Shown in pieces: positions 26,878-40,818 of a DNA stretch of 64,000 nucleotides (positions are counted from its first letter, which is position 1; each line of letters opens with the position of its first letter). The DNA comes from a virus (Duplodnaviria > Heunggongvirae > Uroviricota > Caudoviricetes): the IMG/VR virus record IMGVR_UViG_3300045007_000064, positions 60,236 to 124,235 of that record. The stretch is one strand, 5' to 3'. Under the pieces are notes generated by a model that did no database searches, was not told where the DNA came from, and saw only the letters and a program-made list of their open reading frames with translations. A program made the translations under genes and the position numbers.

Positions 26878-28581
26878 TCAGAACTCGCCGCGAGCGAAGG
26901 CCGACACGAGGGCCGGAGCCGCCGAGTCGAATCCTGCGATGTCCAGGCTGTTCTTGTCGTTCGGGTCGATCAGCGTGTTCGGTGTCGCCTCCGTGGAGAG
27001 GAAGATCACCTTGGCGTCGATTCCCGTCTCCCGTCGATACTTCTCCAGGGCCTCGAAGGGCTGGATGTCTCCGGCCCAGGTCTCGTTGTCCGTGAGGATA
27101 AGGAAGACCTCGGGGCGCAGACCCTTCTCCAGGGCGTACATGATCGGCACGGCGATGTCAGTACCGCCCATCGGCAGACGGCGAACGTCGTTGATCACGT
27201 CATCGAGACGCCGGTTGGGCGAAACGATGCGGTCGAGGTCCGTGACCGCCTGGCTGTAGTGATCCTTCTCCTTGGCCTCGGGGACCTGGTTCCGACGACC
27301 GTAGCCGTAGCGGTACCCGCCGCGTCCGCCAGCGTAGCTGGTGAAGCCGACGATGTGAGTCTCCGGCTCGGTTGCAGCCGTCACGAGGGCGATTGCAGCC
27401 GTGGCCTCACGGGGAGTCAGTACAGGGCGATCCTTGCCGTAGCCGTAGCCGTAGAAGCCGTCCATGGAACCGGACACGTCCAGGCCGATCAGGTACTTCT
27501 TGCCCGCGGGCACAACGTTCTTGAACGCCAGGTAGAAGGCCTTGTCCAGGGCGTCGATGACCTCGCGGCTCGGCGTCCAGACGGTGGAACCCTTCTGGGA
27601 CTTGCCCGCCGCGTAGGTCTTCAGCGCGGTCAGCACGGCGATGGGGTGGATACGAGCGCGCTCGATTTCCTCCTTGCTCGTGAGACGCTTGACGACCTCG
27701 CCCAGACGAGAGCCATCCTTCAGCTTCTCGAAGAAGCCGAGGTTGGTCAGTCGCGGGAGCTGGCGCAGCAGCGCACCGAGCGGCAGGTTGCCGTCCAGAA
27801 GCGCGTCCCACGTCTCACGCTTGTTCAGCGCCTCGGTGGGCAGCATCTCCCAGGTCAGGCCGTACTCACGAATGAGTGCCGGAACATCGGCATCGGCAGC
27901 CTGCGCAAGCAGGAAGCCCTTGACCAGCTCCGGAGCCTTGGAGGCGTCATCGTGCAGGAACCACTCACCCAGGCCCTGCCACGCGGCATCCTGAGTCTTC
28001 GGGTGGGTCGTGCGGAAGATGTCACGGTGCGTCCAGCCCTCACGCTGACGGTACTTGACGATCTGGTAGGCAGCCTTGTCGGCGTCCTTACCCACGTACC
28101 AGTCTCCGACAGCGGTCTTCAGAGCGCGGCCCCAGCCACGGAACTGAAGCGCGAAGTTGACGAACTGAATCAGCGTGGTGCCCGTACGAGCAACCGCGTT
28201 CAGCTTGGACAGCGCGTACCGGCGTGCCTCAACCGATCCTGTGGACGCGGCGATGGCAAGCGCGAACAGTCCGGCGTCCTGCTTGGGAGCGCGACCCTGG
28301 GTCGAGTACTCCACGATGAGGTCCACGAGCTGGCGTGAACCCTCGTCGGTGGAGGCAACGCGCTGGACAGCCTGCGCGTTCTCCAGAGCGAGCTTGGCAC
28401 CGGGCGTGTAGAAGTTGCTCTCAGCGCCGAGGATCAGGAACCGCTTGACGCGCTCGATGTCCTCCAGCTTGAAGGTGTACCCTCCGGCAGCGTTCTTGAT
28501 CTGCTCCGGGCGTGCCTTCTGGCTCTGCGGGGTTGCCGTCATGCCCTTGCGGGTGACAACCGTCTTCAGGGATGATCCCAT
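26878..28581 (-). CDS. rsr: Ro60-related protein Rsr (TROVE domain plus vWA/MIDAS domain)
   Basis: The TROVE-like N-terminal region and the C-terminal vWA MIDAS motif GLDVSGSM match the layout of bacterial Rsr. Start taken at MGSSLKTVV. Confidence 0.75.
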   Translation of the reverse strand: MGSSLKTVVTRKGMTATPQSQKARPEQIKNAAGGYTFKLEDIERVKRFLILGAESNFYTPGAKLALENAQAVQRVASTDEGSRQLVDLIVEYSTQGRAPKQDAGLFALAIAASTGSVEARRYALSKLNAVARTGTTLIQFVNFALQFRGWGRALKTAVGDWYVGKDADKAAYQIVKYRQREGWTHRDIFRTTHPKTQDAAWQGLGEWFLHDDASKAPELVKGFLLAQAADADVPALIREYGLTWEMLPTEALNKRETWDALLDGNLPLGALLRQLPRLTNLGFFEKLKDGSRLGEVVKRLTSKEEIERARIHPIAVLTALKTYAAGKSQKGSTVWTPSREVIDALDKAFYLAFKNVVPAGKKYLIGLDVSGSMDGFYGYGYGKDRPVLTPREATAAIALVTAATEPETHIVGFTSYAGGRGGYRYGYGRRNQVPEAKEKDHYSQAVTDLDRIVSPNRRLDDVINDVRRLPMGGTDIAVPIMYALEKGLRPEVFLILTDNETWAGDIQPFEALEKYRRETGIDAKVIFLSTEATPNTLIDPNDKNSLDIAGFDSAAPALVSAFARGEF

Positions 28582-28614
28582 GATGTATGTCCTTTCTTCG
28601 GCTCGTCCATAGAC

Positions 28615-28650
28615 GAACATTGCCCCTAACCTATCACGAAGGCAGGGGCA
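28615..28650 (-). promoter_or_regulatory. proximal promoter of rsr
   Basis: Minus-strand TTGACA, a 17-nt spacer, then TAGGTT. The leader continues AAUGUUCG...GAGCCGAAG...AAAGGAC before the ATG. Confidence 0.5.
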
Positions 28651-28734
28651 TGTCAAGTGTTAAAGCTGAACATGTTGTTGCGCATGGGGTTCGTTCAAAG
28701 AGATAACCCATACACTTCGGCTCGGCTTCGTGAT

Positions 28735-28775
28735 GATCTTAGGGTACCACACATCTGCGCTATGTGCAAACGAGA
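28735..28775 (-). promoter_or_regulatory. distal promoter of rsr; copy A of the repeated promoter-and-leader module
   Basis: Minus-strand TTGCAC, a 17-nt spacer, then TACCCT, followed by the leader motif CGAAGCCGAGCCGAAG...GGGTTATC. Confidence 0.45.
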
Positions 28776-28834
28776 GTCCCACCCGTACTTAGGTTTCGGG
28801 GTGGGACTCTCTGGCTCGCATTACGCACTTACTA

Positions 28835-30655
28835 CTATGGCAGAAGCTCGCGGAACTTGTCAAGTAGACCAGCGAGAGCGATGGCTTCATCCTTCGAGAG
28901 GGTGATCGTCCACTGATCCTTCGGGGTCTCGGGCTTCGGGTCAACCGGAGTGGTCGGCTTCTCGGCAGCGAATCCCTTTGCCAGTTCGACAATACGATCC
29001 AGGTTCATGCTCGGACCCGGGCAAGCCGTAGCTGCACCGGGGGTCTCGCGGTGACCGATGACGTGCGTGCGGTCAATCGGGAATCCGTAGCGCTTGGATG
29101 CCCAGGCTACCAACTTAGCGATGGCGATGTGGCTCGCTTCCGAGATTCCCCAGTTCGGGTCTCCGGAGGTGTTCTGGGTCTCCACCGTGACGGCGTTGTA
29201 GTCGAACGCACCCGAGGTCCATGCGCGGAAGTTGTCGGGCGGTACAATCTCAGACACCGATCCGTCCGCACCGATCAGCCAGTTGGGGCTGACCTTGCGG
29301 TCGTTTGCGTTCATGAACCGATCACGCAAGCCAACAACCGAGGTGGTTGCAGCCGCGTGGTGGATGACAAAGTACTGAACCTTATCTCCCGGTCGGCGCG
29401 GGCTGGAGTTGGAGGAGTGATCCCACCACACGGATTCCGGATACGTCGCCTTGACAGGCTTCGGGTACTGAACCGGCTTCGGGTCCGCGGGGATCGAAAC
29501 CGACGTGAACTTCTTGTCCGTGTTCAAGAACTCCTGGAGCTTGCGGATTGTGTCGGGGCCAATGGCACCGTCAACAGTAGCGCCAACGTTGATCTGGAGA
29601 GCCTTCGCGGTGTTCGGACCAACCTGACCGTCCTGCGTGATACCTACGGCCTTCTGGAATGCCTTCCAGGTGTTCGGGCCTAGCTCGCCGTCCTCGGTCG
29701 ATCCTACACGCTTCTGGAACGCCTTGATCGTGAGCGGACCCCACTGACCGTCAACCGTCAGCTTGGTCGGCGTCGGAGTAGGTGTCGGGGCGGGGGTGGC
29801 AGGCTTAGGCTTGAAGCCTCCGTTGTTGAGGCTCGTCTGTAGGGCCTTGATCGTGTTGGGACCCATCTGGCCGTCTACAGTCGTGCCGATGGCCTGCTGG
29901 AGGGCGCTGTAGGTCTTCGGACCCAGCTCGCCGTCAACCGCCACACCAAGCCACTTCTGGAGGGCCTTGGTGGTCGCAGGACCCCACTGACCGTCAGCCG
30001 TAACGCCGAGGCGCTGCTGTAGAACCTTCACGGTCGCAGGACCGAGCTTGCCGTCAACAGTGAGCTTGGCCTTGCCAGCCTGAACCTCGTTGTAGTACTT
30101 CTGGTGTGCGGTCTGCGTACCGGCACCCCACTGTCCGTCAATCGCTCCCGAGTATCCGTAGGCACGGAGGAATGTCTGGTAGCGCTTGTAGGCTGCGGTG
30201 GTGGCTGCACCCTGCTGACCGTCCACAGCCAGCTTCTCGCCGCGAGACTGGTTGAGCCATGCCTGACGGTTCTTCGTGTCCTGGTTACCGGCAGACGCTC
30301 CGCCTCCGCTGGTGCGGTAGCGGTCCTCGTTCGGGAAGTACTCGAAGTGCCACGGCTCGACAAGCTTTCCGTTACGGTAAACGGTACGACGCCAGCCGTG
30401 AGACTGAAGCATCGCTACGTGGTTCTGGCCTTCGTTCGTGTCGATAGCCGAACCCTTCTCGTGGAGAGAGGTTCCGGGGCGCGCAGCGATGGGGTAGCCG
30501 TAGCGCTGGTAGCGGTCCCAGTGGGCCTGCTGCTGAGCGCGGGTACGGCCCGCCTCGGTGATCTGCATGCGGTGGCCCAGGGCCTTGTCGATGCGGAAGA
30601 GGGACTGTGCGGGGGCGTCATTCAGCCAGCCGCGTCCGCCGCCAAGATCAGTCAT
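28835..30655 (-). CDS. endolysin (lysin A) with M15 peptidase, peptidoglycan-binding repeats and amidase-2 domains
   Basis: N-terminal VanY/M15-like region (SLHEKGSAID). Six or more LGxxxDGxxGPxT peptidoglycan-binding repeats. C-terminal N-acetylmuramoyl-L-alanine amidase-like region. Confidence 0.85.
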   Translation of the reverse strand: MTDLGGGRGWLNDAPAQSLFRIDKALGHRMQITEAGRTRAQQQAHWDRYQRYGYPIAARPGTSLHEKGSAIDTNEGQNHVAMLQSHGWRRTVYRNGKLVEPWHFEYFPNEDRYRTSGGGASAGNQDTKNRQAWLNQSRGEKLAVDGQQGAATTAAYKRYQTFLRAYGYSGAIDGQWGAGTQTAHQKYYNEVQAGKAKLTVDGKLGPATVKVLQQRLGVTADGQWGPATTKALQKWLGVAVDGELGPKTYSALQQAIGTTVDGQMGPNTIKALQTSLNNGGFKPKPATPAPTPTPTPTKLTVDGQWGPLTIKAFQKRVGSTEDGELGPNTWKAFQKAVGITQDGQVGPNTAKALQINVGATVDGAIGPDTIRKLQEFLNTDKKFTSVSIPADPKPVQYPKPVKATYPESVWWDHSSNSSPRRPGDKVQYFVIHHAAATTSVVGLRDRFMNANDRKVSPNWLIGADGSVSEIVPPDNFRAWTSGAFDYNAVTVETQNTSGDPNWGISEASHIAIAKLVAWASKRYGFPIDRTHVIGHRETPGAATACPGPSMNLDRIVELAKGFAAEKPTTPVDPKPETPKDQWTITLSKDEAIALAGLLDKFRELLP

Positions 30656-30803
30656 CGGTCGGCTCCACTTCTACAATGTCGGTTCCGTCCTCAGTCAGCG
30701 CAACGTAGACCGCTTCGCCGTCCTTACGGGTGGTCAGGATGCGTGGGACACCGGTCGTCTGTAGCGTGTACAGAAGGGTGTCATCTGTGTATGGATAAGT
30801 CAT
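30652..30803 (-). CDS. small hypothetical protein (49 aa)
   Basis: Its stop overlaps the lysin start as ATGA; good GC3 bias; no transmembrane segment. Confidence 0.4.
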
Positions 30804-30868
30804 ACTACTATCATACTACTCGCACAAATTCTGAGTTCTGGGCTGGTATGATACTGTCGGCGGACACG

Positions 30869-30902
30869 AAAAAGCCCCGATCAGCAATGACCGGGGCTTT
30901 TC
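30869..30902. terminator. bidirectional rho-independent terminator
   Basis: AAAAGCCCCG-loop-CGGGGCTTTT. Confidence 0.6.
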
Positions 30903-30992
30903 TAGAGGATCGTGAACATGTTGTGAAGATCGGTGTTTGAGCTAGGTTCCGGACCAGCGCACGAGTCGAACGTGCTTTCGCCTGTGTTTGAG

Positions 30993-31025
30993 ACAGATAA
31001 CCGATACCTCTTCGGCTCACGAAGT
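30993..31025 (-). repeat. copy B of the leader motif
   Basis: Plus strand reads GATAACCGATACCTCTTCGGCTCACGAAG; the reverse complement is GAGCCGAAGAGGUAUCGGUUAUC. Confidence 0.5.
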
Positions 31026-31085
31026 AAATCGCGAAGATGGTGTGGGAGTCGGAGAGCAGCCGTAGCTGCGATTGCGACCTATTCG

Positions 31086-31120
31086 TAAGATAACCGACTG
31101 TCCCTTCGCCTCGCGAAGTC
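31086..31120 (-). repeat. copy C of the leader motif
   Basis: Plus strand reads GATAACCGACTGTCCCTTCGCCTCGCGAAG. Confidence 0.45.
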
Positions 31121-31192
31121 TATGTGTAGTTTTCAAAGTAGTGGAGAACGAACATGGGGTGCAAGTGGGGATTGGATTCATTTACAGTGAAG

Positions 31193-31258
31193 GATAACCC
31201 ACGAGCTTCGGCTCGCTCTCGATAAATCTATAGTACCACAGCTAGAAGCTGTGTGCAA
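31193..31258 (-). promoter_or_regulatory. promoter D plus leader (third copy of the module)
   Basis: Minus-strand TTGCAC at 31253-31258, a 17-nt spacer, TACTAT at 31230-31235, then the leader GAGCGAGCCGAAGCUCGUGGGUUAUCC. Confidence 0.5.
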
Positions 31259-31261
31259 GTC

Positions 31262-31441
31262 CTAGGCGAACTTTTCTTGGAGATAGGCGAGGTACGCGCG
31301 GGCGTCCTCTTCCGGCAGGGTGACCGTCTCCGCACCCACGGTGATGATCAGGTCTGTGACGGTAGGCTCACCCGAGCCAGCCGTGGTGCGCGTGTGAGAT
31401 AGGAACCGCTTCGGGTTCAGGGGGCTGCGTGTGAATGTCAT
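31262..31441 (-). CDS. small hypothetical protein (59 aa)
   Basis: Under 60 aa. Very strong GC3 bias; lies between the SPFH-protein gene and promoter D. Confidence 0.45.
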   Translation of the reverse strand: MTFTRSPLNPKRFLSHTRTTAGSGEPTVTDLIITVGAETVTLPEEDARAYLAYLQEKFA

Positions 31442-31461
31442 GGGGCAAGCATAGCAAAGGA

Positions 31462-31493
31462 CCCAGAGTTTTACAACCCTGGGTCCTTCACTT
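31462..31493 (-). terminator. hairpin downstream of the SPFH-protein gene
   Basis: AAGGACCCAG...CTGGGTCCTT. Confidence 0.4.
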
Positions 31494-31504
31494 ACTGCTG
31501 GGTG

Positions 31505-32470
31505 TTACTTGCGGGTGTCCAGGAGGAGGTCTCCGTTGCCGCCATCGATGATGTAGTTGCCGTTCTTGCTGGCCTCGATGATACCCTCGATGCGGCGAAG
31601 CTCCACGACCTCGGGCGTCAGCGACTCGGAGAGCAAGCGGTTGGCCTCAGCCTCACCGCGGGCCTTCTCGATGTCGGCGTTCGCCTGACCCTGCGCCTCG
31701 ATCAGCTTCTTCTCGGCGTTGACCTCAGACGTGCGCTTCTCGGCCTCAGCCTTCTGCGCGGCCTGGTTCGCCTCCTCGATCTGCGTCAGAGCGGTCTCGA
31801 CCGACTCGGGGTAACGCACATCCTGGATGGTGATGGTCGTGAACTCGACACCGTACTGCTTCAGCTTCTCGTTGAGCTTGGTGCGGATCGCCTCTTCCGC
31901 CTCACCGCGCTGGGTACCGCGGAACTCGACCGCCGTGTACTCGGCAGGGACCTGGCGAGCGATGGAGAGGAGCTGCTTCTGGACGATCTGCTCCGTGAAA
32001 CGCTCCTGCGAGCGGAAGTCGGAGTAGATGTCCTCCAGGTACTCGGTACCCAGGGAGTAGGTCGCCACGAGGTCGATGTTGGCGCGGGTCGAGCCGCCGT
32101 CCACACCACCGACGTTGACGGTGATTTCCTTGCCGCTCACCGAGCCACCGGAGTAGCTAGGGGTCTCGCTGCCGTTACCGGCGAACGTGAGCTGCTGGGA
32201 GAAGAGGTCGAAGTCCACGAAGTCGTTGAGCGGAGACTTGAAGCCCGCACCCGGCGTCTCGATGGTTCCGACGATGGTCTTGTCCACGGAGTTGACGACG
32301 ACCTTCGCCTCACCGACGCCGTTCTGATAGAACGTGCCGAAGAAGAGGAAGATCGCACCGAGGACCGCGAGGCCCGCCGTGGCAAGCCCGGCGACCTTGA
32401 TCTTGCCGAAGATCGCCACAAGAAGCGCGATTGCCGCAAGGACGAACGCGATGACTGCAAGTACGAACAT
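31505..32470 (-). CDS. SPFH/band-7 family membrane protein (HflK/stomatin-like)
   Basis: N-terminal transmembrane segment, an SPFH core, and a Glu/Ala/Lys-rich coiled-coil tail. Confidence 0.75.
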   Translation of the reverse strand: MFVLAVIAFVLAAIALLVAIFGKIKVAGLATAGLAVLGAIFLFFGTFYQNGVGEAKVVVNSVDKTIVGTIETPGAGFKSPLNDFVDFDLFSQQLTFAGNGSETPSYSGGSVSGKEITVNVGGVDGGSTRANIDLVATYSLGTEYLEDIYSDFRSQERFTEQIVQKQLLSIARQVPAEYTAVEFRGTQRGEAEEAIRTKLNEKLKQYGVEFTTITIQDVRYPESVETALTQIEEANQAAQKAEAEKRTSEVNAEKKLIEAQGQANADIEKARGEAEANRLLSESLTPEVVELRRIEGIIEASKNGNYIIDGGNGDLLLDTRK

Positions 32471-32556
32471 GTCTGTCTTTCTGTCGTTGGATGTTCAGGC
32501 TAGTGCCTTGACATCTACGATCTAAGCACAAGGTTGCTCGCCCTGTCAAGTCTGAT

Positions 32557-32937
32557 CTACCACTTTCTCCCAGCGGCTCTAGTGGCCTTAGCTAGAGCGG
32601 CGTGAGCATCCCTACAGAGCTGGCAACGACACTTACCCTTCGTGTACCTGCTGTGCGTCCCGTGAGGGGAGGCCTTTTCCAGATTCGTCTTCTCCAGATG
32701 ATGGTCGTAGCACAGCACCTGACAATTGGCAAGCTCTCTATCTCTGAACGCCTGCCCTCGGGACCAAATACCGGAAGGCTCAACCGTTTTCAGCTTACGA
32801 TCTATGTGGTCAACTTCCAGTCGATCATCGGAGCCGCAGACAGCACAAACGCCGCCCTGACTGTCAATCCAGTCCTGACGGCGCTTAGCAACCCACTTGC
32901 GCTGATACTCGCGCTTGGCATCTCCTGTGTAACCCAT
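32557..32937 (-). CDS. HNH endonuclease
   Basis: CAVCG...LEVDHID...CQVLCYDHH. Start trimmed to MGYTGD so that it does not overlap the tRNA-Ala gene. Confidence 0.7.
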   Translation of the reverse strand: MGYTGDAKREYQRKWVAKRRQDWIDSQGGVCAVCGSDDRLEVDHIDRKLKTVEPSGIWSRGQAFRDRELANCQVLCYDHHLEKTNLEKASPHGTHSRYTKGKCRCQLCRDAHAALAKATRAAGRKW

Positions 32938-32967
32938 GGTTCGATGGTACCATATCCACAGAGATTT

Positions 32968-33043
32968 TGGTGGAAGATAGGAGATTCGAACTCCTGACAT
33001 CCTGCTTGCAAAGCAGGCGCTCTACCAACTGAGCTAATCCCCC
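32968..33043 (-). tRNA. tRNA-Ala (anticodon TGC), CCA encoded
   Basis: GGGGGAT acceptor with the G3·U70 wobble pair, D-arm GCTCAGTTGGTAGAGC, anticodon loop CTTTGCAA, T-arm AGGAGTTCGAATCTCCT. Confidence 0.75.
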
Positions 33044-33104
33044 AAACTAACCAACATGCATGCGTGGTGCCTCGAAAGACGCTTACGTTGCAGCGGTTGG
33101 TAGC

Positions 33105-33177
33105 GTGGACCAGACGTGATTCGAACACGCAACCTTCACTATGCCATAGTGTTGCTCTACCGTTGGAGCTACAGGCC
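33105..33177 (-). tRNA. tRNA-Ala (anticodon GGC)
   Basis: G3·U70 pair, T-loop TTCGAAT, anticodon loop ATGGCAT; one mismatch in the acceptor stem. Confidence 0.5.
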
Positions 33178-33196
33178 CATATGTTGTTCAGTTGTT

Positions 33197-33273
33197 TGGT
33201 GGAGACGAGCGGAATCAAACCCCTCACACTCTGCTTGCAAAACAAAGTCGCCATTCTTGGTACATGCGCCCCC
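33197..33273 (-). pseudogene. degenerate tRNA-Ala(TGC)-like element, CCA encoded
   Basis: Acceptor, T-arm (TTTGATT loop) and CCA are intact. The anticodon region CTTTGTTTTGCAAGCAG cannot form a proper stem, and the D-arm is aberrant. Confidence 0.35.
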
Positions 33274-33291
33274 GTAGGATGTTCAGTTATA

Positions 33292-33368
33292 TGGTGCCCA
33301 CACCTAGAGTTGAACTAGGACTTACGAGTTATCAGCTCGTCGTGCAGAGACCGCTACACCATGCGGGC
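33292..33368 (-). tRNA. tRNA-Ile (anticodon GAT), CCA encoded
   Basis: Perfect cloverleaf with anticodon loop CTGATAA and T-loop TTCAACT. Confidence 0.75.
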
Positions 33369-33579
33369 AGACAACATACAGGGCGAACATGGGGTGCCAA
33401 CGGAGATTCCATTCTTTCATGGTGTCATACGGGCCTTTCCCCGTCAGGTCATTCACTCTGACCCGAAGGCCATTCACCGGAGTGACACGTCCCAGATTAC
33501 CCTCTGGGAGGTTACTGCAAAGTTACGTGGACCTACGTCCACGGTTTGTGGTGGTTACATTACCTATTAGTGTGATAAC

Positions 33580-33647
33580 CGTATAGCTTCGGCTCGCCCT
33601 GTTGAGTTGTTGGTATCTATCGTAGCACACTTTCTCGGAGTGTGCAA
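33580..33647 (-). promoter_or_regulatory. promoter E plus leader, driving the first tRNA array
   Basis: Minus-strand TTGCAC at 33642-33647, a 17-nt spacer, TACGAT at 33619-33624, then the leader GAGCCGAAGCUAUACGGUUAUCAC. Confidence 0.5.
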
Positions 33648-33653
33648 CTTTTC

Positions 33654-33992
33654 TTACTCGTCTGCTCCGTAGGCTGCGTCACGTGCGCGGCGCAGGAGCT
33701 TGATGAGCTTGTTGATCTGGTAGCGAGACAGGCTGTCCGTGTAGATCGCCCGCTTCGTCACCTGTGGATCATCCTTCAGCGATTCCGCGTTTGCGATCCA
33801 CTGCTCGCGCGGGAACTCGATGCTGAGTTGGACGTGACCCATGTCACGACTCCAGTTTAGCTCAACACCGGGGGCGTAGTCAATGTGACCGCCCTCTGGA
33901 ACTTCACCAGGTTCACCGACTCCGGCGTTGACCTGGTGGCCTTCCTTGTTGTAGATGTCCCACGATGAGGGGACGACAGTTTCCTTGGGCAC
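33654..33992 (-). CDS. hypothetical protein
   Basis: ORF. Confidence 0.45.
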   Translation of the reverse strand: MPKETVVPSSWDIYNKEGHQVNAGVGEPGEVPEGGHIDYAPGVELNWSRDMGHVQLSIEFPREQWIANAESLKDDPQVTKRAIYTDSLSRYQINKLIKLLRRARDAAYGADE

Positions 33993-34829: not shown

Positions 34830-34907
34830 CGCCCCAGGCAGGATTCGAACCCGCATTTTCATCCAGTTACGATTCTCGGAGGTAGAAGCTCCGGTCGGTA
34901 CTGAGGC
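34830..34907 (-). pseudogene. tRNA-like element with an Arg(TCT)-like anticodon hairpin and aberrant architecture
   Basis: Intact 7-bp acceptor stem, T-arm GCGGG-TTCGAAT-CCTGC and hairpin CGGAG-CTTCTAC-CTCCG, but no D-arm and a 22-nt insert before the T-arm. Confidence 0.3.
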
Positions 34908-36737: not shown

Positions 36738-37964
36738 TCAGCCCTTGACGCAGAGGATCGTCTGAAGGTGCGCGACCTTCTCGACCAGGTTGCTCTGAGC
36801 CTCGACCACCGCGTGTAGGTCCTTGTAGGCGTGAGAGATTTCGTCAATCACACCCGCGTCCTTGCGCGACTCGATGCCCTTCATGGTCTCAGCCACGTCC
36901 GCCACCGTGAAGCGGCGCTTGGCCTCACCACGGCTCATCTTCCGACCGGCACCGTGAGATGCGGAGGTCAGAGACGCCTCGTTACCGAGACCACGGACGA
37001 TGTACGAGCCGGTTGCCATCGATCCGGGGATCAACGCCAGCTCGCCCTTCTTCGCGGAGATTGCGCCCTTACGGGTCACGATCATGTCCACCGGCTTGCC
37101 ATCCACGAGGTGAGTCTCCTCCGCCACGTAGTTGTGGTGGCAGTTGATTTCGTCCTCGAAGCGCACCTTGGAGATGACGCGAGCCAGCTCACGCTTCACG
37201 AGGGACATCATCACCGTACGGCTGGTCGCCGCGTAGTTCTGCGCCCACATGAGGTCGTGCCGGTACTCCAGCATCTCCGGGGTGTCCTTCAGGAAGACCG
37301 CCAGCTCCTTGATCGGAAGGTCCTGGTTGTGATCCAGGGTCTTCGCGATGGAGATGTGGCGCTCTGCCAGCTCCTTGCCGATGTTCCGCGAACCGGAATG
37401 CAGCGTGATCCAGATGTTGTCATCCTCGTCCGTGCACAGTTCGATGAAGTGGTTACCTCCACCGAGGGTACCGAGCTGCTTACCGGCACGCTCCTCCAAC
37501 TTGTCCGCACCCGGGGCGCGGAGAGAGTCGAAGCCGTTCTTCAGCTTGGTGACCTCGGAGTTCAGGCCGTTACCGCCGATGTCTCGGAGGTCCTTCGAGG
37601 ACAGCGCCTCACCGTGGGAGTTGAAGCCGACCGGCACCGCGCGCTCGATGGCGCTACGGAGCTTGTGGAGGATGCCGTCAACGTCCTCACGAGTGAGGTT
37701 CGTCTTCACGGCGTTCACACCACAGCCGATGTCCACACCCACAGCGGACGGACAGATCGCGCTCGTGGAGCCGATCACCGTACCGATGGTCGCGCCAGCG
37801 CCCAGGTGAACGTCGGGCATCACGCGCAGCTCGTCAACCCACGGCAGCGCGCCGACGTTGCGAATCTGCTGAACCGCCTGCGGTTCGATTTCCCACTCGT
37901 TCGCCCACATGAGTGTGCGAGTCTTTGCACCCGGCAATTCAACCGGGAAGTTGTTGTCAGTCAT
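36738..37964 (-). CDS. rtcB: RtcB-family RNA 3'-phosphate ligase
   Basis: VMPDVHLGAGATIG, part of the metal-binding histidine signature, in a 408-aa protein. Confidence 0.9.
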   Translation of the reverse strand: MTDNNFPVELPGAKTRTLMWANEWEIEPQAVQQIRNVGALPWVDELRVMPDVHLGAGATIGTVIGSTSAICPSAVGVDIGCGVNAVKTNLTREDVDGILHKLRSAIERAVPVGFNSHGEALSSKDLRDIGGNGLNSEVTKLKNGFDSLRAPGADKLEERAGKQLGTLGGGNHFIELCTDEDDNIWITLHSGSRNIGKELAERHISIAKTLDHNQDLPIKELAVFLKDTPEMLEYRHDLMWAQNYAATSRTVMMSLVKRELARVISKVRFEDEINCHHNYVAEETHLVDGKPVDMIVTRKGAISAKKGELALIPGSMATGSYIVRGLGNEASLTSASHGAGRKMSRGEAKRRFTVADVAETMKGIESRKDAGVIDEISHAYKDLHAVVEAQSNLVEKVAHLQTILCVKG

Positions 37965-38254
37965 TTCGTGTCCTCGTAGTGGAAGAAGATTTCGGTGTCG
38001 GGTCGAAGGTAAATCTTGTACCCGTTTTGGTTGATCAGAATCGTCCCGTTCTGGTGAACGTAGATCGACTCAATGGTGTAGACATGCGGCTTGGTGATCC
38101 AGGCCTTAGCGGTATCATCCCAGTGTCGGGAAGGCTTAGCCTTCCCCCGGCGACTACCGTAGACGATGGACTCTACCGTACGCCCTAGGTCGCTGATCCG
38201 TAGTTCGGATGCTGGAACTGGAATCTTCGAGACGGTCATGCGTTGTACGTCCAC
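37961..38254 (-). CDS. hypothetical protein
   Basis: ATGA coupling to the rtcB start. Confidence 0.45.
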   Translation of the reverse strand: MDVQRMTVSKIPVPASELRISDLGRTVESIVYGSRRGKAKPSRHWDDTAKAWITKPHVYTIESIYVHQNGTILINQNGYKIYLRPDTEIFFHYEDTK

Positions 38255-38697
38255 AGCTCGATGTCTGCTCGATACCGCAGGGCAACTTCGGTGAGGACGA
38301 CCTCGACCATACGTTGGTCCAGACCGCCGATACCGCTGCCGATCCGAGGCAGGGCCAGAGTCTCGATGCCCACCTCATCACACTTCTGGAGGGCCGCAGC
38401 CACACCGCCGATGAGCAGGTCGTAGGAGGCGTTCGCCCCGGGAAGCTCCTGCGAGGCGATGTTCAGAACGAGCGCAGGCTGTCCCCACGGGGTCTTCAGG
38501 CTCCAGGAGAACACGCCTCCCGGCTCCAGGGTGCGGTTGCTGCACGCCTCCCGGTAGGCCTCGAACATCTCAGGGAACCGCTTGCTGAACTGCGCAGCGA
38601 TCCCCGCGCCCATAACGCCCACGGTGTTGACGCCGTGGCCGATGGCTCGCGAAGTCGTGGTGAAGATGTCGCCGTAGCGGTGGATAAGCTTTGTCAT
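38236..38697 (-). CDS. macro-domain protein (ADP-ribose or ADP-ribose-1''-phosphate processing)
   Basis: GDIF...GVNTVGVMGAGIAAQF and LPRIGSGIGG are macro-domain signatures. Confidence 0.7.
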   Translation of the reverse strand: MTKLIHRYGDIFTTTSRAIGHGVNTVGVMGAGIAAQFSKRFPEMFEAYREACSNRTLEPGGVFSWSLKTPWGQPALVLNIASQELPGANASYDLLIGGVAAALQKCDEVGIETLALPRIGSGIGGLDQRMVEVVLTEVALRYRADIELWTYNA

Positions 38698-38736
38698 GGT
38701 CTCAGCCTAACAGGTGTCGCCTGCTGTGTCAAGGCG

Positions 38737-39012
38737 TCAGTACGCCGTGTTGTCCTCGTGACCGCAGGAACCCTTGTGATTGACGGGCTTCTTGCATGGT
38801 TTCCATGTCCAGTCACTCGCATCCCATGCGTCCACGTCCCGGTAGGCCTGACCGCACTCATAGCTGTCGCTGTGGGTGTGGTAGAACCCGGCTCGACTGT
38901 TCGGGAGCTTGCCCAGCTCGGGTCCCGTCAGCTTCTTGATTCCTTGCTGCACTTCCGATAGCTCGTGGAGTAGTCTCTCCTCTTCGCGCTGAAGATCGCT
39001 GAGGGCGCTCAT
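38737..39012 (-). CDS. hypothetical cysteine/histidine-containing protein
   Basis: Start taken at MSALSDL. Confidence 0.4.
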   Translation of the reverse strand: MSALSDLQREEERLLHELSEVQQGIKKLTGPELGKLPNSRAGFYHTHSDSYECGQAYRDVDAWDASDWTWKPCKKPVNHKGSCGHEDNTAY

Positions 39013-39386
39013 TCGCTGTCTCCCTTGCTCAGGTGGTCGTAGATGACGCTGATCTTGACCCACTCGGGGGCCTCGGCGTTCGCGGCGGCGAGCATCTGCT
39101 TGCGCGCGGGAGGGTTGGACGTGTGGATGGTCAGCTCCTCAGGCCAGACCTCGTGCTCGATCATCCAGTTCAGCACCTTCATGCCGGTGTCGTCACCGCC
39201 GAGGTCGTGATCCAGGCTGACCTCCTCGATCCCGCCACCAAGAGGGCGTCCACGCTTGTCGTTGTTTCGACGCCACGTCTCCAGCCAGTCGATGGCCTCA
39301 GCGCTTGTCCGCGCGTGAACGTGCCATGGAATGCTATTGGAGTCCCACGGCATGGGACGCTCGTCGTCTACCCAAATCTTCATCAC
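39009..39386 (-). CDS. hypothetical protein, WVDDERP paralogue 1
   Basis: N-terminus MMKIWVDDERPMP...VSLDHDLG. Confidence 0.5.
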   Translation of the reverse strand: MMKIWVDDERPMPWDSNSIPWHVHARTSAEAIDWLETWRRNNDKRGRPLGGGIEEVSLDHDLGGDDTGMKVLNWMIEHEVWPEELTIHTSNPPARKQMLAAANAEAPEWVKISVIYDHLSKGDSE

Positions 39387-39694
39387 TTACCGTCCTGGTT
39401 GTCGTCGTCTACGAGGATCAGACCCTCCGGCCCTGCTTCCTTGGCGTAGGAGAGAATCTGGTAGCGACCGGTGCCACCGCCCGAGTGGGAGTGAAGTTCA
39501 CGAGGCCAGATGCCACGGCTTTCCATCCACTGGAGAACGTCGAAGCCGGAGTCCCAGCCGATCAGCACGTAGTCCAGCGAGACCACATCGTAGTCATTCT
39601 CCTGGAGCAGGCTGCGCGCATCGTCGGCGGTCTTGGCTACGTCCCAGTTCTCGTCCGGAGCGGGGCGCTCATCGTCTACCCAGAGTTTCTTCAT
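39383..39694 (-). CDS. hypothetical protein, WVDDERP paralogue 2
   Basis: N-terminus MKKLWVDDERPAP...VVSLDYVL; tandem duplicate of the neighbouring gene. Confidence 0.5.
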   Translation of the reverse strand: MKKLWVDDERPAPDENWDVAKTADDARSLLQENDYDVVSLDYVLIGWDSGFDVLQWMESRGIWPRELHSHSGGGTGRYQILSYAKEAGPEGLILVDDDNQDGK

Positions 39695-39744
39695 ACTGCC
39701 AGGGTACACGAGAAAGGCCCCGCTGTCAAGCGAGGCCTTTCCGG

Positions 39745-40818
39745 TCAGCGGTCGTGCTTCAGGAGGTACCGCTGGGAGATTGCCTTCCACGAGGCCCGAG
39801 CACCGTTCGGGAACGTTGCTACCTCGGTGTTCCGCCAGACGACACCCTCGACAGGCCGCTGAGGGTTGATCAGGCTCTTCAGGTTCTCGACCTGAGCCAG
39901 AGCCTCGTCCTGGTCCTTCGGGTAGGGCAGGTCGTGGATCGGCACGGCGATGTCGAGCGCCCACTGTGGCCAGGAGGCACGAGGAAGCTCCTCGCGGTCA
40001 ACCTGGATCGTGAAGAGTCGGAACTGGACTTGCTTGACCTGGAGAGGGTTGCCCTGGATTCCAGGACCAAAAATCTCCCCCTGGAGAGCGATTTCAGCCT
40101 CCACCAGGTAATCCTGAGCGGGGTACCAGTTGGTCATCTTCTCGTGGAGGTCCAGCTCGCGAGCCAGCTTCCACATGGAGTTGTGGCTGGTGTCCTCGAT
40201 GTCCCAGTTGCGCGAGGCCACGCCGTTCTCGTTGTTGGCGTAGAAGACGGTCATTGACGAGCCGTCAATCTTCTCGGTGGCGACCCAGGCATCCGGAGTC
40301 GGCTGAGAGCCGTCGAAGAGCCAGGAGAGGTTCTGCACGCGCTCCTCGTCGGTCTTGCGGAAGATGGACGGGAAGGCACCCTTGGCGCTTCCTGCAAGCT
40401 CGGCGGGGATGGGCGGGTCCCACTTCTCCAGTCCGGGAATGGCGGACGTGATATCCATACCGAGCAGAGCAATGCCCTGAGCCACGGCGAAAGCTTCATC
40501 CTCGAACTGAGCGAAGGGAAGCACGAGGCCCTGGCTGTAGACGCCACGGAGCTTCGCAGTCTTCAGGACGTGGCCCTCCACGCCCTCCTGGTTCTTCCGC
40601 GCTCCACGAGGCGCGAGGAAGGTGAATCGGGGGTCGTCCAGCGGCAGGAACGAGTCGATTTCGAAGTAGACCACAAGGTCTCCAACCTCGAACTCTCCGA
40701 TGCGCACGACGACATCCCAGCCGCGCACACGCGCGACCTCGATGCTGTCGGCTCCCTCGATGGGACGCAGCTCTGTGATTTCCTCGACCGTTGCGAGGGC
40801 GCGTTCTTCTGTAGTCAT
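39745..40818 (-). CDS. ATP-dependent RNA ligase (nucleotidyltransferase KxDG family)
   Basis: Motif I EKIDGSS with the covalent-adenylation lysine, an N-terminal OB-like region, and later ligase motifs. Confidence 0.65.
   Translation of the reverse strand: MTTEERALATVEEITELRPIEGADSIEVARVRGWDVVVRIGEFEVGDLVVYFEIDSFLPLDDPRFTFLAPRGARKNQEGVEGHVLKTAKLRGVYSQGLVLPFAQFEDEAFAVAQGIALLGMDITSAIPGLEKWDPPIPAELAGSAKGAFPSIFRKTDEERVQNLSWLFDGSQPTPDAWVATEKIDGSSMTVFYANNENGVASRNWDIEDTSHNSMWKLARELDLHEKMTNWYPAQDYLVEAEIALQGEIFGPGIQGNPLQVKQVQFRLFTIQVDREELPRASWPQWALDIAVPIHDLPYPKDQDEALAQVENLKSLINPQRPVEGVVWRNTEVATFPNGARASWKAISQRYLLKHDR

What the first reader, a model, noticed from the sequence alone, without database searches (positions are those of the whole stretch)
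28582..33647. A family of repeated promoter-and-leader modules upstream of rsr, the candidate RNA locus and the first tRNA array
At least five copies are present: 28686-28775, 30993-31025, 31086-31120, 31193-31258 and 33580-33647. On the plus strand each reads GATAACC-N-CTTCGGCTCG. In the transcribed (minus) orientation that is a TTGCAC-N17-TAnnnT promoter followed within about 10 nt by a GAGCCGAAGCUC hairpin and GGUUAUC. The copy at 28686-28775 drives rsr, the copy at 33580-33647 drives the tRNA array (tRNA-Ile through tRNA-Ala), and the copy at 31193-31258 drives the ORF-free locus. A shared leader on an RNA-chaperone mRNA, a tRNA precursor and a candidate non-coding RNA suggests common regulation, such as a processing site or a protein or RNA binding site. 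This is more than an ordinary promoter.
Basis: seen in the sequence. Interest (0 to 1): 0.65.

Follow-up and report, generated by a model that had tools for sequence, protein, structure and literature searches.

The report
Five phage Y RNA genes beside rsr
The repeated "promoter-and-leader modules" are the conserved protein-binding ends of five unannotated Y RNA genes, the small RNAs that partner the Ro60/Rsr protein encoded next door; this is a known kind of RNA, and the one new lead is a possible Y RNA look-alike sitting on the ribosome-binding site of the rsr mRNA itself.

Summary
The repeat is real. GATAACC-N6-8-CTTCG[G/C]CTC occurs exactly five times, all on the + strand, against 0 expected. 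It is not a leader hairpin. On the transcribed minus strand each copy, GAG[C/G]CGAAG-N-GGUUAUC, is the 5' strand of a long-range helix. Its 3' partner (CAUGUUC or CAUCUUC, plus complementary flanks) lies 50-200 nt downstream.

The five RNAs share one fold: terminal stem, CGAA internal loop, upper stem, variable apex. A covariance model built from them finds only these five in 64 kb. It finds eight in each of three related Microbacterium phages. In 78 unrelated viral and bacterial rsr loci it gives 91 hits, all on the rsr strand and nearly all next to rsr.

Covariation is strong: 95.9% of cells paired, and 13 of 15 pairs have compensatory changes. The motif equals the published Rsr-contact motif GNCGAAN0-1G. 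These are Y RNA genes, new members of a known kind.

The TTGCAC-N17-TAnnnT promoters are ordinary examples of this phage's extended -10 promoter class.

The most novel point is a sixth GAGCCGAAG at 28596-28604. There the Rsr-binding helix is circularly permuted and abuts the rsr Shine-Dalgarno. The same arrangement recurs in several distant rsr lineages. Rsr may therefore repress its own translation; this is untested.

The parts
28662..28729 (-). Y RNA 1 (68 nt, 'mini-Y'), the closest to rsr. Terminal stem GAAGCCGAGC/GUUCAGCUU; CGAAG; upper stem GUGUAUGGG/CCCAUGCGC; apical loop UUAUCUCUUUGAACGAAC.
   Evidence: R1 model hit of 47.7 bits, E=6e-9. Rfam RF01656 (nematode sbRNA, Y RNA homologues) 30.1 bits, E=0.0035. 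Fold z=-2.3. Orthologues in all four relatives are longer and carry a GGUUCGAAUCC T-loop-like insert.
28741..28769 (-). Promoter-like site upstream of Y RNA 1: TTGCAC-N17-TACCCT with a TGTGG extended -10.
   Evidence: Conserved in all four relatives (alignment A2).
28628..28656 (-). rsr's own promoter-like site: TTGACA-N14-TGaTAGGTT. The predicted start is about 28620-28622.
   Evidence: -35 TTGACA and a 17-nt spacer are kept in A3Wally, Big4 and Zooman despite indels.
28590..28621 (-). rsr 5' UTR element: AAU|GUUCGUC-UAUG-GACGAGC|CGAAG|AAAGGA. This is the Rsr-binding helix GAGC/GUUC plus CGAAG in circularly permuted order, running straight into the Shine-Dalgarno. The ATG is at 28581.
   Evidence: Exact 10-mer CGAGCCGAAG. 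The 7-bp hairpin is the predicted fold. GGACGAGCCGAAGAAAGGACA is invariant in four phages, with base changes that keep the stem. The same architecture occurs at rsr starts in other lineages.
26878..28581 (-). rsr (Ro60 orthologue, 567 aa).
   Evidence: Pfam TROVE 4.9e-43 and vWA_Ro60 1.2e-42. 87.5% identical to the A3Wally 'Ro-like RNA binding protein'.
31144..31220 (-). Y RNA 4 (~77-81 nt), first gene of the three-gene array.
   Evidence: R1 60.6 bits. RF01656 25.4 bits. Fold z=-4.0.
31230..31258 (-). Promoter-like site of the Y RNA array: TTGCAC-N17-TACTAT.
31135..31164 (-). Candidate internal promoter for Y RNA 3 (TTGCAC-N18-TACTTT), embedded in the 3' half of Y RNA 4.
   Evidence: TTGCAC/TTGCGC and a TAnnnT box are kept at the same place in A3Wally, Big4 and Zooman (sequences). 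Weakest of the promoter calls.
31027..31118 (-). Y RNA 3 (~88 nt). Its 5' motif is GAGGCGAAG and its 3' partner is CAUCUUC, so the C-G pair of the other copies is G-C here.
   Evidence: R1 74.2 bits. Fold. Compensatory change.
30908..31024 (-). Y RNA 2 (~113 nt), with a T-arm-like hairpin GCACG-UUCGACU-CGUGC in the apical domain.
   Evidence: R1 76 bits. Fold. No RF02553 (YrlA) hit at E<=5.
30861..30902 (-). Intrinsic terminator ending the Y RNA array: 15-bp stem, then UUUUU.
   Evidence: Fold -26 kcal/mol, z=-4.2.
33379..33601 (-). Y RNA 5 (~223 nt). It has an 11-bp terminal stem and a large variable apical domain, and ends 10 nt before tRNA-Ile (33368).
   Evidence: R1 41.6 bits, E=2e-7. Fold z=-3.65. 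In four orthologues the outer stems are kept with compensatory changes while the apex is hypervariable.
33619..33647 (-). Promoter-like site of Y RNA 5 and the downstream tRNA array: TTGCAC-N17-TACGAT.

Best explanation
The five repeats are the 5' strands of the Rsr(Ro60)-binding stems of five Y RNA genes on the minus strand. They lie 81 nt to 5 kb upstream of the phage's rsr gene.

Each RNA is made by host RNA polymerase from an ordinary extended -10 promoter or by co-transcription. Y1 may also be released from an rsr precursor. Y4, Y3 and Y2 form one array closed by a terminator. Y5 precedes tRNA-Ile.

Each RNA folds so that its 5' end (NNN-GAG[C/G]) pairs with its 3' end ([G/C]UUC-NNN). This leaves CGAA(G) opposite about 7 unpaired nucleotides (ACNNCAU). 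A second stem follows, and the apical domain begins with the invariant UUAUC.

Rsr binds this constant module. The variable apical domains (18 to ~170 nt, one with a T-arm) act as adaptors that gate Rsr or tether it to other factors such as host PNPase.

Shown here: the repeat, the fold with covariation, and the strict linkage to rsr. Inferred from published work on homologues: Rsr binding and the tethering role. Speculative: a role in RNA repair or quality control during infection, together with the nearby RtcB, RNA ligase, Macro-domain gene and 43 tRNA genes.
For: - Repeat: five copies, 0 expected.
- Fold: all five adopt the same architecture of terminal stem, CGAA loop, upper stem and UUAUC.
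- Partners: each 5' motif has a complementary 3' partner whose flanks differ from copy to copy but stay complementary. This includes the GAGG/CUUC switch in Y3.
- RNAalifold on 13 sequences: 15 pairs, 8 with compensatory changes.
- Model R1 in the window: exactly five hits in 64 kb, all on the minus strand.
- Model R1 in relatives: eight hits each in A3Wally, Big4 and Zooman.
- Model R1 in unrelated rsr loci: 26 hits in 15 viral contigs (13 Rsr-defined rsr loci at 37-43% Rsr identity, plus motif-found L006 and L062) and 65 hits in 65 bacterial rsr loci. All are on the rsr strand, and the great majority lie within ~500 nt upstream of the start or ~850 nt past the stop, with a few up to ~2.4 kb away.
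- Known phage cases: R1 also hits upstream of the Ro gene of Mycobacterium phage Catera, from the phage group in which Y RNAs were first reported.
- Covariation on 42 aligned hits: 95.9% paired against 70.9% shuffled; 13 of 15 pairs compensatory; score 0.703 against <=0.136 when the partner columns are slid.
- Published motif: GAG[C/G]CGAAG fits GNCGAAN0-1G, the motif proposed as the Rsr contact, and UUAU fits the conserved YUAY (PMC4201824).
- Rfam: the best hits are to nematode sbRNAs, which are Y RNA homologues. One Y RNA in each relative gives a sub-threshold RF02553 YrlA hit.
- Neighbouring gene: it is a TROVE + vWA_Ro60 protein.
Against: - There are no expression or binding data; the RNA ends are inferred.
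- None of the five reaches a curated Rfam threshold. RF01656 gives 30.1 and 25.4 bits against a gathering score of 38, and RF02553 gives no hit at E<=5.
- The window shows no Y RNA with a full tRNA-like domain, which Chen et al. found in at least one Y RNA per species. Y2 has only a T-arm, and about two thirds of the genome is unseen.
- Y1 is a deletion derivative of a longer orthologue, and its orthologues in A3Wally and Zooman have CGCUG or CGACG in place of CGAAG. That copy may bind Rsr weakly or not at all.
- Alignment A3 was fitted to the model, which inflates the percentage paired. The slid-partner control and the independent MAFFT/RNAalifold result agree with it nonetheless.
Confidence: 0.9

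Rival explanations
1. One promoter-plus-leader cassette, containing a local GAGC-CGAA-GCUC hairpin, heads three different transcripts (rsr mRNA, an ncRNA and a tRNA precursor). It acts in cis as a common processing or regulatory site.
For: Three copies do follow TTGCAC-N17-TAnnnT promoters. Transcripts from two of these promoters probably continue into rsr or tRNA-Ile, since no terminator lies between.
Against: - The hairpin is not conserved and shows no covariation: 53.5% paired against 53.4% shuffled.
- Two of the five copies lack the promoter.
- Every copy pairs with a distal 3' strand, with strong covariation, so each forms a self-contained RNA.
- The promoter type is generic in this genome: 22 copies against 3 expected.
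- rsr has its own promoter downstream of Y1.
Confidence: 0.04
2. The repeats act as DNA, not RNA. They would be operator sites (GATAACC...CTTCGGCTC) for a phage or host transcription factor that co-regulates the three promoters.
For: They lie just downstream of promoter-like sites, where repressors often bind. GATAACC alone is over-represented, with 13 copies against 4.4 expected.
Against: - A DNA operator would not need a covarying partner 50-200 nt away.
- It would not keep one strand orientation relative to rsr in 91 of 91 hits across phyla.
- Two copies have no adjacent promoter.
- The spacing between the two half-motifs varies from 6 to 8 nt.
Confidence: 0.02
3. The sequences derive from Y RNAs, but some are decaying duplicates with no function of their own. 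The candidates are the 68-nt Y1 and the UTR copy, which would be relics of tandem duplication and deletion in a fast-evolving array.
For: - The array differs in copy number between close relatives: three against five genes between the endolysin and band-7 genes.
- Y1 has lost the T-loop segment present in its orthologues.
- Neighbouring Y RNAs have mutually complementary 3' and 5' strands, so a junction could yield a UTR-like hairpin by accident (read directly from the sequence; no control run).
Against: - Y1 keeps both stems intact and keeps the invariant CGAAG and GGUUAUC.
- The UTR element is more conserved across four phages than the sequence around it.
- The UTR element recurs independently at rsr starts in distant lineages.
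Confidence: 0.08

Closest known systems
Bacterial and phage Y RNAs of the Yrl class: YrlA/YrlB of Salmonella and Mycobacterium smegmatis, and the Y RNAs reported next to Ro genes of 22 phages including mycobacteriophages (Chen et al. 2014, PMC4201824)
   Same: - Encoded next to rsr and on its strand.
- Stem formed by the 5' and 3' ends.
- GNCGAAN0-1G on the 5' strand, and YUAY at the start of the apical region.
- Several paralogues per genome.
- In M. smegmatis the Y RNAs lie upstream of rsr and are cut from one precursor, as proposed here for Y1.
- Model R1, built only from the Microbacterium-phage repeats, hits upstream of the Ro gene of Mycobacterium phage Catera and next to rsr in 65 bacterial loci.
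   Different: - There are five copies here and eight in three relatives, against two per species in the characterised bacteria.
- None of the five reaches RF02553, and none has a complete T + acceptor + D tRNA-like domain.
- One copy is fused upstream of a tRNA array.
- The 3' strand (CAUGUUC) is also conserved within this phage group, whereas only the 5' strand is conserved across bacteria (bioRxiv 10.1101/312249).
Yrl1/Yrl2 of Thermus phage phiLo, which bind the phage Ro60 (PMC12135203)
   Same: Phage-encoded Y RNA-like genes directly upstream of the phage Ro60 gene. They were recognised by a 5'-3' stem flanking an internal bulge that carries CGAA. Binding to phage Ro60 and formation of a complex with host PNPase were shown in vitro.
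   Different: A different phage lineage and host, with two RNAs rather than five to eight. No sequence comparison was made here. No UTR element has been described there.
Vertebrate Y RNAs and nematode stem-bulge RNAs (Rfam RF00019, RF01656)
   Same: - The same modular plan: lower stem with the Ro-binding 5' strand (GGUCCGA in vertebrates), upper stem, and a loop beginning UUAUC.
- UUAUC is a conserved, functionally required motif in sbRNAs and is present in vertebrate Y RNAs (PMC4726728).
- RF01656 is the best Rfam match for Y1 and Y4.
- A Y RNA on the distant viral contig L131 scores above RF01656's gathering threshold: 40.4 bits against 38.
   Different: - The window's copies score below threshold.
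- The bulged-helix sequence differs (GAGCCGAAG/CAUGUUC).
- They would be transcribed by bacterial RNA polymerase from sigma-70-type promoters.
- The literature treats bacterial Y RNAs as not demonstrably homologous to the vertebrate clades (PMC4726728).
Autogenous translational operators that mimic the protein's main RNA ligand (ribosomal-protein operators that mimic rRNA; the tRNA-like operator of thrS). Recalled from general knowledge, not tested here. This comparison applies only to the rsr 5' UTR element.
   Same: A copy of the protein's cognate RNA-binding motif overlaps the ribosome-binding site of the protein's own mRNA.
   Different: Nothing of this sort has been reported for Rsr/Ro60 in the papers searched. 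Binding and repression are untested.

Membership tests
Y RNA (Ro60/Rsr-associated ncRNA, bacterial/phage Yrl class) | [quoted passage not shown] | tested here: met
   Predicted in all five folds. RNAalifold gives 8 of 15 pairs with compensatory changes. On 42 homologues 95.9% of cells are paired, 13 of 15 pairs are compensatory, and the covariation score is 0.703 against <=0.136 for slid controls.
Y RNA (Ro60/Rsr-associated ncRNA, bacterial/phage Yrl class) | The conserved 5'-strand motif GNCGAAN0-1G, proposed as the Rsr contact (PMC4201824) | tested here: met
   GAGCCGAAG in four copies and GAGGCGAAG in one. G, CGAAG and the preceding GAG are invariant in alignment A1.
Y RNA (Ro60/Rsr-associated ncRNA, bacterial/phage Yrl class) | Encoded within a few kb of an rsr/Ro60 gene | tested here: met
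   rsr is confirmed by TROVE + vWA_Ro60. The five genes lie 81 nt to 5 kb upstream on the same strand. The same model hits only the rsr strand, mostly close beside rsr, in 78 other loci.
Y RNA (Ro60/Rsr-associated ncRNA, bacterial/phage Yrl class) | Conserved YUAY at the start of the apical (V) region | tested here: met
   GTTATC is invariant in all 13 sequences of A1. GGUUAUC or GGUUACC is also present in distant viral and bacterial homologues.
Y RNA (Ro60/Rsr-associated ncRNA, bacterial/phage Yrl class) | Physically bound by Rsr, and dependent on Rsr for accumulation | not testable with these tools
   Needs EMSA, RIP or Northern blots in infected cells.
YrlA subfamily (Rfam RF02553; tRNA-like T arm, acceptor-like stem and D arm) | A tRNA-like effector domain, or a match to RF02553 | tested here: not met
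   No RF02553 match at E<=5 anywhere in 28400-33900. Y2 has only a T-arm-like hairpin. Each relative has one sub-threshold RF02553 hit of 30-40.8 bits, against a gathering score of 69.
Metazoan Y RNA / nematode sbRNA (Rfam RF00019, RF01656) | A score at or above the curated gathering threshold | tested here: not met
   RF01656 gives 30.1 bits (Y1) and 25.4 bits (Y4) against a gathering score of 38. RF00019 gives no hit.
   53.5% paired against a shuffled mean of 53.4%. One compensatory cell was observed and 1.0 expected.
Autogenous translational operator by ligand mimicry (the rsr 5' UTR element only) | Resembles the protein's cognate RNA site and overlaps the ribosome-binding site | tested here: met
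   GACGAGC|CGAAG|AAAGGA, with the partner strand GUUCGUC upstream. Conserved in four phages. A hairpin plus CGRA at the Shine-Dalgarno occurs in 20 of 85 rsr loci, against 36 of 2700 other candidate starts.
Autogenous translational operator by ligand mimicry (the rsr 5' UTR element only) | The protein binds its own leader and represses translation | not testable with these tools
   Needs EMSA, toeprinting and reporter fusions.

The most novel reading that the evidence does not exclude
The rsr mRNA carries a circularly permuted copy of the Y RNA Rsr-binding helix. The order is 3' strand, tetraloop, 5' strand GAGC, then CGAAG, and the CGAAG abuts the Shine-Dalgarno. Free Rsr would bind its own leader and block translation, and Y RNAs would relieve this by competing for Rsr. 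That would set the Rsr:Y RNA ratio.

The same arrangement is found in four Microbacterium phages. It is also found on an unrelated viral contig (two records, L127 and L136) and in Myxococcota, where the hairpin shows compensatory changes.

Phage Pumpernickel is a partial natural test. Its Y RNAs use a different 5' motif, RCGCCCCWG, and the sequence after its UTR hairpin follows that variant (UGC|CCCCUA).
Probability: 0.4. Interest if true: 0.7.

Novelty: new member of a known kind. Interest (0 to 1): 0.45.

Why it matters
- Annotation. It explains an 'ORF-free' locus and several intergenic repeats in a group of ~190-kb Microbacterium phages whose records annotate no Y RNAs. It also flags probable misannotations, both small ORFs and a 'tRNA-Ser', that overlap Y RNA genes.

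- Y RNA biology. These phages carry five to eight Y RNA paralogues with one constant Rsr-binding module and fast-changing apical domains. The paralogues sit among tRNA genes and next to RtcB, an RNA ligase and a Macro-domain gene. That makes the group a compact natural system for asking what different Y RNA 'adaptors' recruit during infection.

- Regulation. If the rsr-leader look-alike is a real operator, it would be the first described feedback loop linking Ro60/Rsr synthesis to Y RNA supply. The Pumpernickel motif variant would offer a natural specificity swap for testing how Ro60 recognises RNA.

Tried and rejected
- A fixed 10-nt spacer pattern found nothing real; the spacer varies from 6 to 8 nt.
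- A loose home-made descriptor (CGAA plus two stems) gave 1971 hits, mostly noise, and was replaced by a covariance model.
- Rfam at gathering thresholds finds only tRNAs in the window.
- RF02553 (YrlA), RF01053 (Deinococcus Y RNA) and RF00019 give no match to the five copies at E<=5.
- The raw motif scan of viral contigs returned mostly chance matches. Only the loci with several copies (L006, L062) were confirmed by the model.
- The promoter/terminator scan missed both the TTGCAC promoters and the strong terminator at 30861-30902, so these were checked by pattern search and folding instead.
- The UTR look-alike is not universal. It is absent or unconvincing in the leaders read of Mycobacterium phage Catera, Gordonia phage Forza, Streptomyces phage PinkiePie and the sampled actinobacterial rsr loci, several of which only have CCGGA fused to the Shine-Dalgarno without a hairpin.
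- For the window's UTR, folding the longer 85-nt stretch (28578-28662) gives an MFE that pairs AUGUUC with GGACAU and so sequesters the Shine-Dalgarno. In the 54-nt UTR fold the proposed 7-bp hairpin is the MFE at -9.8 kcal/mol and the alternative is the centroid at -9.7, so the two are nearly iso-energetic. The C-for-U change in the relatives favours the hairpin, but this is a single substitution.
- No Microbacterium genome appeared among the 67 closest bacterial Rsr loci, so whether the host has its own Rsr and Y RNAs is unknown.
- No supplementary tables of Chen et al. 2014 were available to check which phages they listed.

Full report
**1. Source and setting**

The window comes from a large Microbacterium phage. 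Its nearest records are A3Wally, Big4, Zooman and Pumpernickel (186-195 kb), at about 81-84% DNA identity over this region.

All genes from 26.8 to 53 kb lie on the minus strand. Reading along the minus strand, the gene order is as follows:
- RNA ligase (39745-40818), a Macro-domain gene (38236-38697) and RtcB (36738-37964);
- tRNA genes;
- a tRNA-Ile/Ala array (33368-32968);
- a band-7 protein gene (31505-32470);
- an ORF-free stretch (31260-30810);
- the endolysin gene (28835-30655);
- rsr (26878-28581).

The rsr product has TROVE and Ro60-vWA domains.

**2. Checking the observation**

None was expected in shuffles.

TTGCAC-N17-TAnnnT precedes three of the copies on the minus strand.

The complete 12-mer 'hairpin' GAGCCGAAGCUC exists in only one copy.

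A sixth exact CTTCGGCTCG lies at 28596-28605, in the rsr 5' UTR.

**3. What the repeat is**

An Rfam scan with relaxed thresholds gave its only non-tRNA hits of note at two of the copies. Both were to RF01656, the nematode stem-bulge RNAs, which are Y RNA homologues.

Read on the minus strand, each copy is GAG[C/G]CGAAG-N6-8-GGUUAUC.

Each copy has a partner 50-200 nt downstream, CAUGUUC (CAUCUUC in one copy). The flanks of this partner are complementary to the bases just 5' of GAG. These flanks differ between copies but always match within a copy.

The copy with GAGG has CUUC as its partner, which is a compensatory change.

All five stretches fold into the same plan:
- a terminal stem;
- an internal loop with CGAA on the 5' side and about 7 nt on the 3' side;
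- an upper stem;
- an apical region that begins UUAUC.

**4. Comparative test**

The same units occur in the relatives. An alignment of 13 sequences gave an RNAalifold consensus of 15 pairs, 8 of them with compensatory changes. I built covariance model R1 from that alignment.

R1 results:
- **Window.** Exactly five hits in 64 kb, all on the minus strand: 28662-28729, 30908-31024, 31027-31118, 31144-31220 and 33379-33601. Nothing else appears up to E=10.
- **Relatives.** Eight hits each in A3Wally, Big4 and Zooman.
- **Viral contigs.** 26 hits in 15 viral contigs: 13 rsr loci found with the Rsr protein (37-43% identity) plus L006 and L062, which came from the motif scan. All hits are on the + strand, which is the rsr strand in the 13 Rsr-defined loci, where they lie mostly in the 400 nt before the start codon.
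- **Bacterial rsr loci.** 65 hits in 65 loci spanning Actinomycetota, Myxococcota, Acidobacteriota, Gemmatimonadota, Deinococcus and Poribacteria. All are on the rsr strand. The great majority lie within about 500 nt upstream of the start or about 850 nt past the stop, and a few lie further out, up to about 1.9 kb upstream.
- **Known phage Y RNA group.** Hits upstream of the Ro gene in Mycobacterium phage Catera, and near the Ro gene in Gordonia and Streptomyces phages.

On 42 model-aligned hits the structure is paired in 95.9% of cells, against 70.9% after shuffling. Thirteen of the 15 pairs carry compensatory changes. The covariation score is 0.703, against at most 0.136 when the partner columns are slid. 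That alignment was fitted to the model, so the percentage paired is somewhat flattering. The slid control and the independent MAFFT/RNAalifold result agree with it.

**5. Identity**

Chen et al. 2014 (PMC4201824) reported Y RNAs next to rsr in 254 bacteria and 22 phages. The features they describe are:
- a conserved 5' motif GNCGAAN0-1G, proposed as the Rsr contact and related to the vertebrate GGUCCGA;
- a conserved YUAY at the start of the apical region;
- at least two Y RNAs per species;
- in M. smegmatis, Y RNAs upstream of rsr that are cut from one precursor.

All characterised Y RNAs carry the Ro60 site in a stem formed by the 5' and 3' ends (bioRxiv 10.1101/312249). Phage phiLo Yrl1 and Yrl2 were recognised by the same stem-bulge-CGAA plan and bind phage Ro60 (PMC12135203).

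The window's five units meet every sequence and structure criterion. I therefore call them Y RNA genes Y1-Y5.

They are not YrlA-type. None matches RF02553, and only Y2 has a T-arm-like hairpin. Each relative has one Y RNA with a sub-threshold RF02553 hit. The window's array between the endolysin and band-7 genes is shorter, with three genes against five, and it lacks that member.

**6. Promoters and transcription units (inferred from sequence)**

The TTGCAC promoters belong to a class, TTGnnn-N13-15-TGnTAnnnT, that occurs 22 times in the window against 3 expected. Most copies precede tRNA clusters and genes.

The likely units are:
- P(28769) -> Y1, possibly reading on into rsr;
- P(28656) -> rsr;
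- P(31258) -> Y4-Y3-Y2 -> terminator at 30902-30861, a 15-bp stem of -26 kcal/mol with a U5 tail;
- P(33647) -> Y5 -> tRNA-Ile and the tRNAs beyond it.

A weaker conserved promoter-like site for Y3 lies inside Y4. The 3' end of Y5 lies 10 nt before tRNA-Ile, so RNase P cleavage of the tRNA could help to release it (inference).

**7. The rsr leader**

From the predicted start near 28621 the 5' UTR reads AAU|GUUCGUC-UAUG-GACGAGC|CGAAG|AAAGGA-CAUACAUC-AUG.

This contains the helix GAGC/GUUC and the CGAAG of the Y RNAs. The order is reversed, with the 3' strand first, and a tetraloop closes the end where a Y RNA has its free termini. The motif runs directly into the Shine-Dalgarno.

Evidence within the phage group:
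- The 7-bp hairpin is the predicted fold for the window and for Big4.
- GGACGAGCCGAAGAAAGGACA is invariant in four phages, while the stem differs at two positions in ways that keep pairing (U.G/C-G and C-G/U.G).
- Pumpernickel's five Y RNAs use RCGCCCCWG in place of GAGCCGAAG. Its leader hairpin is followed by CCCCUAAUG-ACAGGAG, which is close to its rsr-proximal Y RNA (CUGC|GCCCCUGAUUAUG). The match is only partial, so I treat it as suggestive.

Evidence outside the phage group:
- Viral contig L127 (and L136, a second record with the same upstream sequence): CACUU|GCUCC-GUAC-GGAGC|CGAA|AGGAG.
- Sorangium, Polyangiaceae and Kofleriaceae: UUU|GCCCGN-loop-NCGGGC|CGGA|GGNGG, with compensatory differences between species.

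I compared candidate translation starts, defined as a Shine-Dalgarno, a start codon and an ORF of at least 100 codons. Twenty of the 85 rsr loci carry a hairpin followed by CGRA at the Shine-Dalgarno. Among other candidate starts the figure is 36 of 2700. The odds ratio is 20.5 and Fisher p is 8e-19.

That p-value ignores relatedness. I count three or four independent lineages.

The element is absent or unconvincing at many other rsr genes. I found no paper on Rsr autoregulation.

**8. Mechanism**

Shown here: the repeat, the common fold with covariation, the linkage to rsr, and the leader element with its recurrence.

Inferred from homologues: Rsr binds the constant module, and the variable apices gate Rsr or tether it to partners such as PNPase.

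Hypothesis: Rsr binds its own leader and blocks ribosome entry, and Y RNAs compete for Rsr. A rival reading of the leader hairpin is that it is a 5'-terminal stabiliser, or a relic of a junction between two Y RNAs. The 3' strand of Y3 and the 5' strand of Y2 are mutually complementary, which I read directly from the sequence without a control.

**9. Verdict**

The thing itself is a set of unannotated Y RNA genes, new members of a known kind.

Interest is moderate. It rests on the copy number (five to eight), the placement among tRNA and RNA-repair genes, the Pumpernickel motif variant, and above all the possible autoregulatory leader.

Noticed in passing
window 33197-33273 (-): A tRNA-like element sits between tRNA-Ile and tRNA-Ala(GGC). 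It has an acceptor-like stem, a UGC anticodon-like loop and a GGGGUUUGAUUCC T-loop. Neither ARAGORN nor RF00005 calls it, and there is only a 14-bit hit in the tmRNA clan. Relatives have a tRNA-Ala(UGC)-like element at the same place that scores on Tymo_tRNA-like and tmRNA models (L002 7129-7199, L003 7330-7404).
   Followed up: partly
window 34830-34907 (-): Rfam RF00005 calls a tRNA at 29.6 bits, just above the gathering score of 29. ARAGORN does not report it.
   Followed up: no
window 36738-40818 (-): An RNA-repair gene set lies next to the Y RNA/rsr region: RtcB (36738-37964), a Macro-domain protein (38236-38697) and an RNA ligase with an OB fold (39745-40818). It is embedded among 43 tRNA genes (32968-53126).
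   Followed up: partly
window, 22 sites, e.g. 53350-53322, 52976-52948, 44039-44011, 38732-38704, 36686-36658, 12305-12277 (-): The extended -10 promoter class TTGnnn-N13-15-TGnTAnnnT occurs 22 times against 3 expected. Several sites are followed by ATG 6-8 nt after the -10 box, which suggests leaderless mRNAs.
   Followed up: partly
L004 (Pumpernickel) minus strand 9073, 8695, 8390, 8299, 5973: All Y RNAs of phage Pumpernickel replace GAGCCGAAG with RCGCCCCWG and use CCCUUAUGCC on the 3' strand, while keeping GGUUAUC. This is a different 'dialect' of the presumed Rsr-binding module within one phage group.
   Followed up: partly
L001 5286-5414 (A3Wally CDS 192); L002 6234-6301 (Big4 'tRNA-Ser(cga)'); window ORFs 30811-31020 and 31017-31181: Annotated or potential small ORFs, and one annotated tRNA, lie inside Y RNA genes in the relatives' records and in the window. 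These are probably misannotations. No phage record examined annotates a Y RNA.
   Followed up: partly
L131 5661-5729 (+) (IMG/VR contig with rsr): A Y RNA upstream of a viral rsr scores 40.4 bits on the nematode sbRNA family RF01656, above its curated threshold of 38. Phage Y RNAs share CGA(A/U)G-N7-GGGUUAUC spacing with metazoan Y RNAs more closely than the literature's 'not homologous' statement suggests.
   Followed up: no
L001 5140-5201, L002 6182-6289, L003 6444-6512, L004 8210-8281: Each relative has one Y RNA with a tRNA-like domain, shown by a sub-threshold RF02553 YrlA hit of 30-40.8 bits. The window's shorter array lacks this member.
   Followed up: partly
window 32557-32940 (-): A 127-aa ORF with no Pfam match sits between the band-7 gene and tRNA-Ala. 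A3Wally has no gene at that position, so this may be an inserted mobile gene.
   Followed up: no
window 28772-28811 (-): A 13-bp GC-rich hairpin (-28 kcal/mol) lies directly after the endolysin stop codon. Its weak U tail overlaps the -35 box of the Y1 promoter, so a terminator and a promoter are packed back to back.
   Followed up: partly
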